From UHGV virus genome UHGV-0177318: a stretch of 47,797 nt of DNA, one strand, 5' to 3'. Numbering within the stretch: the first letter of the stretch is position 1; the number at the start of each line of letters is the position of its first letter. Source of the DNA: a virus. Position numbers: made by a program. Positions 9,001 through 15,000 of the stretch are shown here, one piece after another.

Positions 9001-12000
9001 CCGCAGCTGAGGGGATAACAGGAGGTATCCGATATGGCCCAGCAGATTAGCGATCTGGTTATTAAGCTGGATGTTGACCGCGCAACCTTCAGCGAGCAGG
9101 TCGCCCGAATCAAAGGGCAACTGACAGGAATGGCGGATGAGTCTGATAAAGTTCAGGCGCGAATGCAGCGTGCTGCGGACCGTCAGAGCGCTGCACTAAA
9201 GAGCGTGGGCGACGCTGGCGCGGCGGCCGCCGCAGACATGAAAGCCCGTCAGTCAGCCGCAACGGAAGGGCTGACAAAAGACTGGCAGAACGTTTCCAGG
9301 TCCGTTGATGAAACTCATCGCCGCGTGACCGAACTTAACCAACGCATGCGTGAGAATGACGGACAGGCTGCAGCGCTTGCCCGCCGACAGGATGAACTGG
9401 CGGCATCATTTTTCCGCCAGATTGACGGCGTTCGCCAGCTCAATGGTGAAACACAGTCGCTTGCGAACGTGCAGGCGCGCTTTCGCGCAGCGAGGGCACA
9501 GGGCAACATAACCCAGCAGGATTATCTCGCCCTTATTTCCCGCACCACGGCCCGGCAAAAAGAACTGCAGATCGTGGAGGAAAAATCGGCCGCAGCGCGC
9601 ACGCGATTCCTCAGCCAGCTGAAGCAACAGGTTGCAGAGCAAAAGCTCTCCGGTACCGAGCTGCTGCGCATGAAGGCGGCGCAGGTCGGTGCCAGCGATG
9701 CGGCTGAAGTTTATATCCGCAAGCTTGAAGCTGCCAAAGTGGCCACGCACGGTCTGGGGCTGCAAAGTGCTGCTGCCCGGCAAGAGCTGGGGGTACTTAT
9801 CGGCGAGGTCATGCGCGGTAACTTCGGTGCGCTGCGCGGCTCCGGGATCACACTGGCGAACCGGGCAGGATGGATAGACCAGCTGCTGTCGCTGCGCGGG
9901 CTTGGGATCGCCGGCTTGGTTGGTGGGATTGCCGCGGCGGTATTCGGACTGGGTAAGGCCTGGTATGACGGCAGCAAAGAGTCTGAGGAATTTAACAGGC
10001 AGCTGATCCTGACCGGGAACTACGCGGGGAAAACGTCAGGGCAGCTGCAGGCGCTGGCGCGCTCGCTGGCAGGTAATGGCATCACGCAGCATGCCGCTGC
10101 AGGCGTGCTGGCGCAGGTCGTTGGCAGCGGCGCGTTCAGCGGGAATGACGTCAGCATGGTCAGCAATGTTGCCGCCAGGCTGCAGCAGGCTACCGGACAG
10201 GCCGTCGACGAAACCATAAATCAGTTTAAGCGCCTGAAGGATGATCCGGTTAACGCGGTCGCGACGCTCAACGATTCCCTTCATTTTCTGACAGCCACCC
10301 AGTATGAACAGATAGCTTCTGCTCAGGCGCTGGGGGATTCTCAGAAGGCCGCCGAGCTGGCCATGCGGGCATATTCCGACGCGGTCATTCAGCGCGCCGG
10401 TGCGGTCGAGGATAATCTCGGAACCCTCGAAAAAGCCTGGAACTGGGTGAAGAATGCCGCCTCCGGTGCGTGGGATGCGATGCTTGGCATAGGGCGTAAT
10501 CCTGACACCGCGATGAAGCGCCAGGACTCTTTTGCTGAATGGCAGGCAGCAGAGAAGGAGTACCGCGCGCTTTCCAGCAATCTTAAGGTCGACCCGGATT
10601 ATGCCGGTAACAACGTTCTGCAGAAAGCTGATGCGGAAAGGCTGAGAAACGCGCGCCAGCAGGTGGAGCTGAAAAAGCAGGCTTACGATCTTGCCGATCA
10701 GCAATACGCTCAGGAAGGGCTGGCAGCCGCGCGGGAAAAAATGCGGACAGACCAGCAGGCTCAGGCAATCCGCAACCAGCAGCAGTTTAACCAGCTGGTG
10801 GAGTCCGGCGCGACGGCGGCAGAAAAGCGGGCTTCAGCAGAGAAAAAGCTCAGTCAGCTTATTGAGAAAAACCGCCAGGATGCGAAAGACGGTGTCGCCA
10901 CGCTGTGGACTGAAAAGGACATTGCCGCGGCCCGCGCCGGGATTGAAAAGCAGTGGAAAGATCCAAAAACGCCGAAAGGCAAAAGCTACTCAACGCCCGC
11001 CGGGGACAAAGCAGAGGAAAAGGCGCAGGCCGAACTTCTCACCCTTCAGGCCCAGCTTAAAACGCTTGAGCAGCATACCAGCGTGAATGACGTCATAAGC
11101 AAACAGCGTCAGGATCTCTGGCAGACTGAAAATCAGTTCACCGTTCTGCAGGAGGCTGCAGGGCGTCGTCAGCTTACGGCGCAGGAAAAATCCCTGCTGG
11201 CGCACAAGGAAGAAACGCTCGAGTACAAGCGGCAGCTGGCCGATCTGGGCGATAAGGTTGCCAGCCAGCAAAAGCTCAACCAGCTGGCCGATCAGGCCGT
11301 GAAGTTTGAGCAGCAGCAAAAAGCGGCCAGGGCGGGTCTGCAGGCTCAGTCTGAGGGGGTATCCACCCGGGAAGCCGGGCGACAAACTACGCTGCAGCGT
11401 CTCAGCGAAAGCTATTCGTACAACCCTCAGGCGCAGCAAAAGGTTCTCGAAGAGCAAAGGGCGACGTTCGAGGCTGAAGATGCTCTGCGCGCAAACTGGC
11501 TGGCCGGTGCGAAACAGGGCTGGGCCGAATATCAGGATTCAGCGACAAACGTTTTCAGCTCTGTTCAGCAGATTTCGCAGGCTACGTTCAGCGGGCTGGC
11601 GGGCCAGCTTACCAGCCTGACGACAACCGGGAAGGCGAGCTTCAGGGACTTCACCAGCTCGATCCTTAAAATGATAGTGTCCGTTATCAACCAGCTGCTG
11701 GTGGCTTACACCATCCAGAGCGCAATGGGCTGGGTTAGCGGCGGGGCGAAAATCTCCTCTGCAGGTCAGTCATTCGCGGTCCCGTCATACCGGCCACAGG
11801 GTTTTGACGTGGGCGGTTTTACCGGGCACGGCGGCAAGTACGAGCCAGCCGGTATCGTTCACCGCGGGGAATTCGTCTTCACCAAAGAATCAACCAGCCG
11901 TATCGGCGTGGCTAATCTCTATCGCCTGATGCGCGGGTATGCCTCGGGTGGTCTGGTCGGCGGCGGTAGCGCAGCCGGTGCTGGCATGGGCGGGATCAGT

Positions 12001-15000
12001 GTTTATGCCCCAGTCAGCATCAGCCAGCAGGGGAGTGACGGGAGCATAAATCAGGCGAACGCCACGGGGACGGCGAAACAGCTGCAGGCGATTGTTCAGC
12101 AGACAATCACCGAGCGACTGAAAAAAGAAATGTCCGCAGGTGGCGTGCTTTATTCGAGGAGGACACAGTGACGGACACGTTTACCTGGCGCACGCGAAAA
12201 ACAGCGCAGGGTACTGAAACCGCCCGAACGCTGCAGGCCCAGTTCGGGGATGGCTACAAACAGATAGCGGGGATGGGGATCAACGACAAACAGGAAACGT
12301 GGAACCTGGACTGGACGGGCACCAGACAGGAGGCGGCTGCGCTGCGCGCTTTCCTGATGTCTCACGTTACTAAATCGTTCTGGTGGACCACTCCATGGGG
12401 TGAAAAAAAGCTGTTCAGAATGAAGGCCGATTCGTTCAGCGTTTCTTTCCCTACCGGGAAAAAAGCCACTGTGGCCTTCACTTTTGAACAGGCGTTCGCG
12501 CCCTGATTTTCTCGACAAACACTGAAAGCTGCCTCCGGGCGGCTTTTTTTATGGGGGGAGTATGAGTTTTACGGCAGACATCCAACAGCTTGAGCCCGGC
12601 AGCGTTATTCAGCTGATTGAGATCGACGGCACTGAATTCGGTATGGATCAGGTGCTGCGTTTTCATGCGCACAATATTCAGGAAGAGGGGTGGGCAGCCT
12701 TCGCCGCAGCAAATCTGCCCGCCATTATCTGGCAGGGAAACCAGTACGATCCCCATCCCTACGAACTGAAGGGGATGGAGTTATCGAGTACAGGTTCCCA
12801 GCCAACGCCCACGCTGTCCGTCGGGAACGTCGGAAACTATGTCACCGCGCTGTGTCTTGAATATGACGATATGGTCAGGGCTAAGGTCAAAATCCATACC
12901 ACGCTTTCGAAGTATCTCGATGCCGCCAACTGGAAAAACGGTAATCCGGGTGCCAGCCCGGCCGATGAGCGCGTACAGCTCTTTTACGTCAATGCTAAAA
13001 CCGCAGAGACGCGGGTAAAGGTTGATTTCGAGCTGTGTTCTCCTTTCGATATTCAGAGCCTGCAGCTGCCGACACGGCAGATTACGCCTGTCTGCACCTG
13101 GTGTATGCGGGGCTGGTACCGAAGCGGGACCGGATGCGATTACAACGGCACGAAATACTTTACCAAAGACGGTACGCCGACCGATGACCCGTCGAAAGAT
13201 GTTTGTGGCGGCCGCCGGCAGGATTGTCAGGATCGTCACGGCCCGGACGCGCCGCTGCCGTTCGGCGGTTTTCCGGCTGCAAACCTGCAGGGGAAATAAA
13301 AATGCGTGAAAAATTGCTGGATGCTATCCGTCAGCACGTCGCTGCTGAATACCCCAAAGAAGCCTGCGGCCTGATTGTTCAGTCAGGCCAGCAGCAAATC
13401 TATATTCCCTGCCGCAACATTGCCGATAAACCCGAGGAGACATTCACGCTCTCCCCGGAAGACCAGCTCGCTGCCCGCGCGCGCGGTGAGATCATCATGC
13501 TCATTCATTCACATCCGGATGTGGTTCGGCTGGTGCCCTCAGAGCTGGACCGGATCCAGTGCGACTGGTCGGGTATTGAGTGGGGGATCATGTCCTGGCC
13601 GGACGGGGACTTTTGTACGATCTCCCCGCGTGAAGACCGGGATTATGCCGGGCGGCAGTGGGTGCTGGGTTACGCGGACTGCTGGTCGTTAATCCGTGAA
13701 TATTATCTGCGCGAATACGGCATTGTTCTCGGGGACTATTCGGTACCTTACGAATGGTGGGAGAGCGGCAAGGAGCGGCTCTACGACGACAACTGGGAGC
13801 GCGAGGGATTCGTTGAGATTGCCGCCGGTGCAATGCAGCCCGGTGACATCATCATGATGAGTGTGCAGGCATCGGTGACTAATCACGCCGCGGTATATGT
13901 GGGTGACAACATCATTCTCCATCATCTGTTCGGGCATCTTTCTTCGCGAACGCCTTATGGAAAATATTATCGCGACAGAACGGTCCGGGTGGTCAGGCAT
14001 AAGGACCGAATGCATGGTTAAGACGCTTATTCTCGAAGGGAAAATGGCTAAAAAATTCGGTAAACGCGTTCAGTTTGATGTTGCCGATCTGCGCGAAATG
14101 CTCAGGGCCATGTGTTCACAGGTTCCCGGATTCAAAAAATATATGTCGGAAGCTCATATGAAGGGGATCCGTTTCGCCTTTTTTAACGGTGACAACAATA
14201 TCGGGCTGGAAGAGTTTGATATGACCCGCGGTGGAAGCGTGTACCGGATCGTGCCCGTTTATGAGGGGGCCAAAAATTCAGGCGTCCTGCAGATAGTTGT
14301 CGGTGCCGTTGCGCTGGTCGCTGCATTCTTTACCGCCGGTGCGAGTATGGCAGCCTGGGGGGCTGCGATGAGTGCAACAGCCATCAGCGCCACGTCAATT
14401 TTGACCGGGGTCGGGGTGTCAATGATGCTGGGTGGCGTTGTCCAGATGCTTACGCCCCAGCCATCCTTCGGCGCGGGTAAATCCTCCAGCACGGACAACA
14501 CGCCTAACTACGCCTTCGGGGCGCCGGTTAATACCGTCGCTATGGGGCATCCAGTCCCCCTGGCCTATGGTCTGATCGAGGCAGGGGGAGCGATAGTCAG
14601 CGCCGGTATGTACTCGAGCGATCAGCAATAGTGAAATGCAACCTAATAAGATGAACGTTACATTGCGATCACCCTTGGTTATCATGTCCAAAAAGATGCC
14701 AATCAAGGAGATGAAAGTGAAAAAATACGGTTTGGTCTTATTAGGTGTGCTGTTTATTTCAGGTTGTGCCCCCCAAAATCAGAACAACAATTTACAAAAA
14801 CAATACGCTGACTTAGCAAAGTGTGAAGATAACATCACGATGCCAAAACAAATGCCGCAAAGTAAAAAGGAGTTTGCGGAGTTTTTATCCAAGGCTGCGC
14901 TTAGTGCCTCGGCAGATCAGTTTGTTACCCAGAAGCGTATAGAAATTCTGCAATTAGTTGGGTGGGATAATTCAGTAGCTGATGCAATAACGACATGTGG

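What the first reader, a model, noticed from the sequence alone, without database searches (positions are those of the whole stretch)
9034..12171. Extended tape measure protein relative to lambda
The tape measure is 1045 aa against about 853 aa recalled for lambda gpH. Tail length scales with tape measure length, so a longer tail is predicted.
Basis: partly seen in the sequence, partly recalled or inferred. Interest (0 to 1): 0.2.

Follow-up and report, generated by a model that had tools for sequence, protein, structure and literature searches.

The report
Phi80-type long tail tape measure
The gene is an ordinary, already described tail tape measure protein, 97% identical to that of the classic coliphage phi80, and its extra length over lambda's comes mostly from one helical N-terminal block that many related phages also carry.

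Summary
Window 9034-12171 (+) is one ORF of 1045 aa, and lambda gpH is 853 aa. It is a lambda-family tape measure protein (Pfam TMP_2 plus Tape_meas_lam_C, TIGR01541). It sits between the G/G-T chaperone genes and gene M. It aligns without gaps at 97% identity to phi80 gp16, which is also 1045 aa and is already annotated as the tape measure.

Of the 192 extra residues, 183 form one block (aa 33-215) right after the conserved N-terminus. This block is A/Q/R/L-rich, is predicted helical, and is not an internal duplication. A second insert of 18 aa lies at aa 527-544, and small indels make up the rest.

The block is not peculiar to this phage. It occupies the same position in mEp043/mEp213, mEp460, cdtI, Gifsy-1/2, Fels-1 and an Aeromonas phage. 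It also occurs in 71 clusters (50% identity) of a 1.8-billion-protein library. Close homologues have a median length of 1037 aa, so lambda is the short member.

From lambda's geometry (32 gpV rings, 42 A rise) I predict about 39 rings and a tube of about 164 nm, against 134 nm. No measurement of tail length was available. The finding is already known and of low interest.

The parts
9034..12171 (+). Tape measure protein gene (1045 aa), orthologue of phi80 gp16 / lambda H
   Evidence: ORF and translation. Pfam TMP_2 6.8e-48 and Tape_meas_lam_C 1.3e-20. TIGR01541 3.2e-84. phrog_24 1.5e-281 over aa 1-1041. 97% identical without gaps to phi80 PHI80_15.
9034..9129 (+). Conserved N-terminal 32 aa ([32 protein letters not shown]), shared with lambda gpH
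   Evidence: 14 of 32 residues identical to lambda gpH 1-32; invariant columns across four TMPs.
9130..9678 (+). The main extra segment: a 183-aa helical block (aa 33-215) absent from lambda gpH
   Evidence: MAFFT indel table. BLASTP places the net surplus of 173 aa between window aa 60-278 and lambda aa 60-105. A/Q/R/L/E-rich with 4% G+P. About 90% helix in the AlphaFold model, at low confidence. No self-similarity and no tandem repeat. Present at the same position in many other TMPs.
9823..10314 (+). TMP_2 domain (aa 264-427), which includes the first hydrophobic segment (aa 281-311, nt 9874-9966)
   Evidence: Pfam match to profile positions 52-207 only. Hydropathy peaks at aa 281-311. This segment aligns with lambda gpH 106-140, whose residues 116-140 are the favoured membrane-spanning candidate (PMC12617516).
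10612..10665 (+). Second insert relative to lambda, 18 aa (aa 527-544)
   Evidence: Indel table from alignment A1.
11026..11991 (+). Conserved lambda-type C-terminal tape-measure domain (aa 665-986), the part most similar to gpH
   Evidence: TIGR01541 match to aa 665-986. 53-55% identity to lambda across aa 646-1000. From about nt 10957 the gene is 95.5% identical to mEp043/mEp213, which marks a mosaic joint.
11647..11730 (+). Second hydrophobic segment (aa 872-899)
   Evidence: Hydropathy. It aligns with lambda gpH 679-710, which covers lambda's second, less confidently predicted membrane-spanning stretch at 691-712 (PMC12617516).
11734..12033 (+). Glycine-rich region (aa 901-1000) containing the invariant [26 protein letters not shown] motif; probable region of H to H* processing by analogy with lambda
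   Evidence: 19% Gly. The motif is invariant in all four aligned TMPs. Lambda gpH is cleaved in the glycine-rich region near its C-terminus (PMC12617516). Cleavage in this protein is inferred only.
8296..8727 (+). Tail assembly chaperone G homologue
   Evidence: Pfam Phage_TAC_2 2.2e-28.
8700..9050 (+). T frame, the -1 frameshift extension that gives G-T; open from 8700; candidate slip site G GAA AAG at 8703-8709
   Evidence: Pfam Phage_tail_T 9.2e-14. The -1 frame is open from 8700 to 9050. Sequence read. G-T is annotated in phi80 record FN582354.
7542..8285 (+). Major tail tube protein V homologue, the subunit whose ring number the ruler sets
   Evidence: Pfam Phage_TTP_12 7.6e-68 plus Big_2. 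63% identical to lambda gpV, 247 vs 246 aa.
12168..12506 (+). Distal tail protein M homologue, overlapping the TMP stop codon
   Evidence: Pfam Phage_min_tail 1.2e-25. GTG start overlaps the TMP stop.

Best explanation
This is the phi80-type tail tape measure protein of a phi80/LLS-like lambdoid phage. By homology with lambda gpH, several copies bind the tip complex through the C-terminus and are kept extended by the G and G-T chaperones. They serve as the ruler around which rings of the V tube protein polymerise until the N-terminus is reached. After tail assembly the protein is probably cleaved near the glycine-rich C-terminal region. At infection it is ejected and contributes to the trans-envelope DNA conduit. 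It is 192 aa longer than gpH, and 183 of those residues form one uninterrupted helical block (aa 33-215). The tube is therefore predicted to have about 39 V rings (about 164 nm) instead of lambda's 32 (134 nm). The long form is the usual one in this family; lambda's is a short variant lacking the block. Shown here: the identity of the protein, its length, the position and composition of the extra block, and how widely the block occurs. Inferred: the ruler mechanism, the processing, and the actual tail length.
For: The ORF is 1045 aa. It scores above curated cut-offs for the family models: TMP_2 163.5 vs 30.2 bits, Tape_meas_lam_C 73.7 vs 23 bits, and TIGR01541 282.9 vs 104.75 bits. The gene order V-G-(G-T)-H-M-L matches lambda and phi80. 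It is 97% identical without gaps to phi80 gp16, which is annotated 'tail component;1045' and 'tail length tape measure protein precursor'. It is 38% identical to lambda gpH over aa 279-1039, with E = 4e-133, and it matches lambda tail structures 8iyk/8iyl/8k35. The extra block at aa 33-215 was located by alignment. The block is helix-rich and poor in G+P. It recurs at the same position in TMPs of 975-1086 aa from mEp043, mEp460, Gifsy-2 and pAEv1818 and in 71 representatives of clusters at 50% identity. The 113 full-length proteins among the 120 closest homologues have a median length of 1037 aa. Lambda's geometry is 32 rings with a 42 A rise (PMC10721106). The ruler rule is 0.145-0.15 nm per residue, and in TP901-1 an N-terminal duplication or deletion changed tail length in proportion (PMC5099701). 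The tube protein is 63% identical to gpV.
Against: No tail was measured here. I found no measured phi80 tail length in the held literature. The AlphaFold monomer model has low confidence (mean pLDDT 53.8), so the helicity of the block rests on a weak model plus composition. In lambda the proportionality between gpH length and tail length was established with internal deletions. As far as I recall, the contribution of the extreme N-terminal quarter was not tested directly. The number of residues buried in the tip and neck may differ between phages, so the ring count could be off by one or two.
Confidence: 0.9

Rival explanations
1. The extra N-terminal block does not act as ruler length. It folds back, sits in the neck or head-proximal lumen, or serves only in genome delivery, for example by adapting the ejected channel to phi80's route, which needs FhuA and TonB and does not need ManYZ. 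The tail would then be about as long as lambda's.
For: phi80 and lambda differ in their inner-membrane requirements: lambda needs ManYZ and phi80 does not (PMC6832061). TMPs are multifunctional, and gpH* forms the trans-envelope channel (PMC12617516). The phi80-type proteins also differ from lambda at the junction next to the block, where they lack the LPAQFTD...QQGGQ motif. The structural model is too weak to exclude a folded arrangement.
Against: The block has the same low-complexity helical composition as the rest of the ruler. Natural variants differ by partial loss of the block: P0186 is 858 aa and keeps only about the last 55 aa. This is the behaviour expected of a spacer, not a folded domain. 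Changes to the N-terminal region altered tail length proportionally in TP901-1 (PMC5099701). From memory and not verified here, lambda-phi80 hybrid studies cited by Katsura and Hendrix 1984 mapped a longer phi80 tail to the H region.
Confidence: 0.07
2. The extra length is a recent insertion or internal duplication peculiar to this phage, which is the reading suggested by the word 'extended'.
For: Relative to lambda alone, the difference looks like a single 183-aa insertion.
Against: Self-BLASTP finds no internal similarity, and Tandem Repeats Finder finds no repeat in the gene. The block is found at the same N-terminal position, at 26-98% identity, in phages and prophages of Escherichia, Klebsiella, Enterobacter, Salmonella and Aeromonas. 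The PHROG family profile (phrog_24) aligns with the query from aa 1 to 1041, and with the block alone over profile positions 55-233.
Confidence: 0.02
3. The long ORF is an artefact: a wrong start codon, a fusion of two genes, or an assembly error.
For: None found.
Against: The protein has the same length as phi80 gp16 and aligns to it without gaps. The N-terminal 32 aa are conserved with lambda. There is a Shine-Dalgarno sequence, and the start and stop overlap the T and M genes as in lambda. Full-length matches of 95-96% identity occur in 32 complete E. coli genomes, including Nissle 1917.
Confidence: 0.01

Closest known systems
Phage phi80 gp16 (PHI80_15, AFV29155; 'tail length tape measure protein precursor', 1045 aa)
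   Same: Same length. 97% amino-acid identity without a gap and 92.7% nucleotide identity. Same neighbours (V, G, T, M, L).
   Different: 32 amino-acid substitutions. At the DNA level this allele is closer to phages LLS (96.8%), Flotzy and Eeyore.
Phage lambda gpH (853 aa; PDB 8iyk, 8iyl, 8k35)
   Same: Same family domains and gene position. The N-terminal 32 aa are conserved. There are two equivalent hydrophobic segments. Identity is 53-55% across aa 646-1000, including the invariant [26 protein letters not shown] motif.
   Different: Lambda lacks the 183-aa block (aa 33-215) and the 18-aa insert (aa 527-544). Lambda has a 23-aa LPAQFTD...QQGG segment that is missing here. The net difference is 192 aa. 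Lambda infection needs ManYZ; phi80 infection does not (PMC6832061).
mEp043 / mEp213 tape measure (1086 aa)
   Same: Carries the N-terminal block at 61% identity. The 3' 1.2 kb of the gene is 95.5% identical at the DNA level.
   Different: It keeps the lambda-type LPAQFTD motif plus a further insert, so it is 41 aa longer. The 5' 60% of the gene is too diverged for megablast, which shows a mosaic joint inside the gene.
TMPs of mEp460/cdtI (1021 aa), Gifsy-2 (995 aa) and Aeromonas phage pAEv1818 (975 aa)
   Same: All are long forms carrying the distal two thirds of the block at 47-51% identity.
   Different: The proteins are otherwise more diverged, and the head modules differ.
Lactococcal phage TP901-1 TMP (functional analogue)
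   Same: An experimentally proven ruler at 0.145 nm per residue. N-terminal-region duplication or deletion changes tail length in proportion (PMC5099701).
   Different: No detectable sequence relationship. Its length module is built of 11/18-aa repeats, and none are found here.

Membership tests
Lambda-family tail tape measure proteins (gpH-like) | Pfam TMP_2 (PF06791) above the gathering score | tested here: met
   163.5 bits against a cut-off of 30.2, aa 264-427. Only profile positions 52-207 match; the first 51 positions (the LPAQFTD region) are absent.
Lambda-family tail tape measure proteins (gpH-like) | Lambda-type C-terminal domain (PF09718 / TIGR01541) above the cut-off | tested here: met
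   PF09718 73.7 vs 23 bits. TIGR01541 282.9 vs 104.75 bits, aa 665-986.
Lambda-family tail tape measure proteins (gpH-like) | Gene lies directly after the G / G-T frameshifted chaperone pair and before the distal tail protein M | tested here: met
   G at 8296-8727, T frame open over 8700-9050, TMP at 9034-12171, M at 12168-12506.
Lambda-family tail tape measure proteins (gpH-like) | Largely alpha-helical, extended polypeptide | tested here: inconclusive
   DSSP on the AlphaFold model gives near-continuous helix from aa 1 to 897, but mean pLDDT is only 53.8. Composition agrees: many helix formers and little G+P.
Lambda-family tail tape measure proteins (gpH-like) | Two hydrophobic segments at positions equivalent to gpH 116-140 and 691-712 | tested here: met
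   Hydropathy peaks at aa 281-311 and 872-899. These align with lambda 106-140 and 679-710. The lambda segments are described in PMC12617516.
Lambda-family tail tape measure proteins (gpH-like) | C-terminal helix that forms the trimeric coiled coil held by gpI (gpH 818-849) | tested here: inconclusive
   A helix is predicted at aa 1007-1033, but identity to lambda in aa 1001-1045 is only 20%. The interaction cannot be tested here.
Lambda-family tail tape measure proteins (gpH-like) | Tail length changes in proportion when the protein is shortened or lengthened (ruler function) | not testable with these tools
   Needs genetics plus EM. Only a prediction is given: about 39 rings.
Lambda-family tail tape measure proteins (gpH-like) | Proteolytic processing H to H* after tail assembly | not testable with these tools
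   The glycine-rich region is conserved, but the cleavage site is unknown even in lambda (PMC12617516).
phi80 gp16 orthologue group | Full-length collinear alignment at high identity with the same length | tested here: met
   1013 of 1045 residues identical with 0 gaps.

The most novel reading that the evidence does not exclude
The N-terminal helical block (aa 33-215) may be a naturally variable length cassette. Lambdoid phages would gain or lose all or part of it to retune tail length, and perhaps the reach of the ejected trans-envelope channel. Three states were seen: the full block here, a partial block in the 858-aa protein P0186, and no block in lambda. Its presence could also covary with the route of DNA entry, ManYZ-independent in phi80 and ManYZ-dependent in lambda. 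If so, the block would be more than a passive spacer.
Probability: 0.12. Interest if true: 0.35.

Novelty: already known. Interest (0 to 1): 0.08.

Why it matters
It matters little for discovery. The protein, its length and its role are already annotated for phi80 and its relatives. Two points are modestly useful. First, the alignment shows exactly where lambdoid tape measures differ in length: one N-terminal helical block, present in full, in part or not at all. That makes a clean natural test set for the ruler rule. Second, it corrects the lambda-centred view, because lambda has the unusually short ruler in this family. The ring-count prediction (39 vs 32) is easy to check on phi80 with existing cryo-EM methods.

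Tried and rejected
Internal duplication as the source of the extra length was rejected. Self-BLASTP with word size 2 at E <= 50 returned only the self-match, and Tandem Repeats Finder at minimum score 30 found nothing in the gene.

I looked for a measured phi80 tail length and did not find one. Rotman et al. 2012 (PMC3510586), Xu, Hendrix and Duda 2014 (PMC3907469) and PMC4424060, which I looked up as the Casjens and Hendrix review, are not held. The Lula 2010 paper has no morphology data. The LLS paper gives no tail dimensions.

AlphaFold on the full-length protein with a 48-sequence alignment gave pLDDT 53.8 and pTM 0.25. I used it only for secondary structure. I ran no fold search because a low-confidence model gives meaningless matches.

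I considered whether the phi80 Tai defence gene lay in this tail region. It is orf63 in the phi80 genome, not the open reading frame between I and J.

I considered an annotation artefact and rejected it.
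Full report
**Observation.** Window 9034..12171 on the + strand is a single ATG-initiated ORF of 1045 codons plus a stop. An AGGAGG ribosome-binding site lies about 9 nt upstream. 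The start overlaps the end of the preceding T-frame ORF. The stop overlaps the GTG start of the next gene at 12168. Lambda gene H (NC_001416 10542-13103) encodes 853 aa and overlaps M in the same way.

**What it is.** The protein scores far above the curated thresholds of the lambda tape-measure models. TMP_2 gives 163.5 bits against a cut-off of 30.2. Tape_meas_lam_C gives 73.7 against 23. TIGR01541 gives 282.9 against 104.75. PHROG phrog_24, 'tail length tape measure protein', matches aa 1-1041 at E = 1.5e-281. Its neighbours are the lambda-type tube protein V (7542-8285), the chaperone G (8296-8727), the T frame (open in the -1 frame from 8700 to 9050) and the distal tail protein M (12168-12506). 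In the phage collection the gene is 96.8% identical to phage LLS, 96.2% to Flotzy, 95.4% to Eeyore and 92.7% to phi80. At the protein level it aligns to phi80 gp16/PHI80_15 with 1013 of 1045 identities and no gap. One phi80 record annotates that protein as 'tail length tape measure protein precursor, similar to lambda H' and another as 'gp16; (tail component;1045)'. The same gene, at 95-96% identity, occurs in 32 of 5426 complete E. coli genomes, including Nissle 1917. This is therefore an allele of a known, named protein.

**Where the extra length lies.** BLASTP against gpH aligns aa 1-59 with gpH 1-59, and aa 279-1039 with gpH 106-848 (38% identity, E = 4e-133). That leaves 219 residues opposite 46. 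A four-way MAFFT alignment (window, phi80, mEp043, lambda) resolves this region as follows:

- One uninterrupted block of 183 aa (aa 33-215) is absent from lambda.
- A 23-aa lambda segment (LPAQFTD...QQGG) is absent here.
- A 13-aa insert lies at aa 266-278.
- An 18-aa insert lies at aa 527-544.
- Scattered 1-6-aa indels make up the rest, for a net difference of 192 aa.

The block is 18% Ala, 11.5% Gln and 11.5% Arg, with only 4% Gly+Pro. In an AlphaFold2 model built with 48 homologues it is about 90% helix, in helices 16-56, 63-134, 140-155, 161-203 and 207-218. The model has low confidence (mean pLDDT 53.8) and I use it only for secondary structure. The block is not an internal duplication: self-BLASTP finds only the identity match, and Tandem Repeats Finder finds nothing.

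**The long form is the common form.** A tblastn search with aa 33-229 finds the block in several groups of phages:

- phi80, LLS, Flotzy, Eeyore and an Enterobacter phage, at 93-98% identity.
- A Klebsiella phage, at 72%.
- mEp043 and mEp213, at 61%.
- mEp460, cdtI, Tritos, Ayreon, Gifsy-1, Gifsy-2, Fels-1 and Aeromonas phage pAEv1818, which carry its distal two thirds at 47-51%.

The annotated tape measures of these phages are long: 1086 aa in mEp043, 1021 aa in mEp460, 995 aa in Gifsy-2 and 975 aa in pAEv1818. An exhaustive phmmer search of 1.84 billion cluster representatives finds the block in 71 clusters (55 at E <= 1e-10). In hits that begin at the true N-terminus the block generally starts near residue 33, and hits of 900 aa or more range up to 1168 aa. 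Of the 120 closest homologues from the 5.8-billion-protein search, 113 are full length, with a median of 1037 aa and a range of 971-1190 aa. They come from Kluyvera, Enterobacter, Citrobacter, Klebsiella, Salmonella, Serratia and Cedecea. That list is biased towards relatives of the query, so it does not give the family-wide frequency of short forms. One representative, P0186 (858 aa), keeps only about the last 55 residues of the block and has the phi80-type junction. Length in this family therefore varies by full or partial presence of the block. 'Lambda lacks a block' describes the data better than 'this phage has an insertion'. The direction of change is an inference that a phylogeny would settle.

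**How it most likely works.** The mechanism is inferred by homology with lambda and supported by literature read here. gpH dictates tube length. It lies inside the stack of gpV rings with its C-terminus in the tip, held by gpI. It is cleaved near the glycine-rich C-terminal region to gpH*. On infection it forms at least a major part of the periplasm-spanning DNA channel (PMC10721106; PMC12617516). The features that lambda work points to are present here:

- The conserved N-terminal 32 aa.
- Two hydrophobic segments, aa 281-311 and 872-899, which align with the stretches around gpH 116-140 and 691-712.
- The invariant [26 protein letters not shown] motif in a region that is 19% glycine.

**Predicted tail length.** Lambda's tube has 32 gpV rings with a 42 A rise, giving 134 nm. 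The tube protein here is 63% identical to gpV and has the same length. Scaling by protein length gives 39.2 rings. Adding 0.15 nm for each extra residue gives 38.9 rings. Both point to a tube of about 164 nm, roughly 30 nm longer than lambda's. The 0.145-0.15 nm per residue rule comes from TP901-1, where duplication or deletion of the N-terminal region changed tail length in proportion (PMC5099701). Another paper applies the rule routinely (PMC8624392). I recall that lambda-phi80 hybrid work cited by Katsura and Hendrix (1984) attributed phi80's longer tail to the H region. I could not verify this or find a measured phi80 tail length in the held library, and several key papers are not held.

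**Rival readings.** The only serious alternative is that the block does not contribute ruler length and instead serves genome delivery. phi80 does not need ManYZ whereas lambda does (PMC6832061), and the junction next to the block differs between the two types. Against this, the block has spacer-like composition, its length varies among natural relatives, and TP901-1 provides a precedent. I give this reading about 7%. A recent insertion or duplication, and an annotation artefact, are both effectively excluded.

**Verdict.** The finding is already known: it is phi80 gp16 in a close relative of phi80. Interest is low. What this analysis adds is the exact location of the length difference, the evidence that lambda is the short outlier in its family, and a concrete, checkable ring count.

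Noticed in passing
whole window; sites listed (e.g. 849, 6024, 10794, 11697, and a dense run from 34399 to 46148): There are 23 Chi sites (GCTGGTGG) against 1.7 expected (0 of 100 shuffles reach 23). Nineteen are on the + strand and four on the - strand, concentrated in the right-hand third of the window; two lie inside the tape measure gene. The total equals that published for lambdoid phage LLS (23 Chi sites, 20 vs 3 by strand; PMC12315714), and the bias is similar. LLS tail genes are about 96-97% identical to this window.
   Followed up: partly
window 14636-15193 (+): A 185-aa ORF lies between the I and J homologues. It is 95% identical to phi80 morF (PHI80_20) and has a lipoprotein-like signal (LLGVLFISGC). 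It matches only an unknown-function PHROG (phrog_8179). It looks like a moron inside the tail operon.
   Followed up: partly
window 8700-8727: The G to G-T -1 frameshift region has G GAA AAG at 8703-8709, where I recall G GGA AAG in lambda. After the slip the P-site codon would re-pair with a G:U pair at the middle position. The -1 frame is open from 8700 to the T stop at 9050. Frameshift efficiency was not assessed.
   Followed up: partly
window about 9790-9870 (aa 253-278): phi80-type tape measures, including this one, lack the LPAQFTDxATxxAGG...LLQQGGQ motif that begins the Pfam TMP_2 profile and is present in lambda and mEp043. They have [30 protein letters not shown] instead. Only 6 of the 113 full-length close homologues carry the lambda-type motif.
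   Followed up: partly
window about 10957 (nt 1924 of the gene): There is a mosaic joint inside the tape measure gene. mEp043 and mEp213 are 95.5% identical at the DNA level only from here to the 3' end. Upstream of this point they are undetectable by megablast and 61% identical as protein.
   Followed up: no
window 1-20600: The structural arm is itself mosaic. The head genes (3-7500) are closest to phi80 (about 91%) and about 84% identical to mEp237. The tail genes from 7542 on are closest to LLS, Flotzy and Eeyore (93-96%), whose head genes are unrelated. No complete E. coli genome in the collection holds the right half of the window at more than 59% coverage.
   Followed up: no
protein P0186 (858 aa; library representative, not in the window): This is a short-form tape measure with the phi80-type junction that keeps only about the last 55 aa of the N-terminal block. 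It is a short form distinct from lambda's, which lacks the block altogether, reached by partial loss of the same block.
   Followed up: partly
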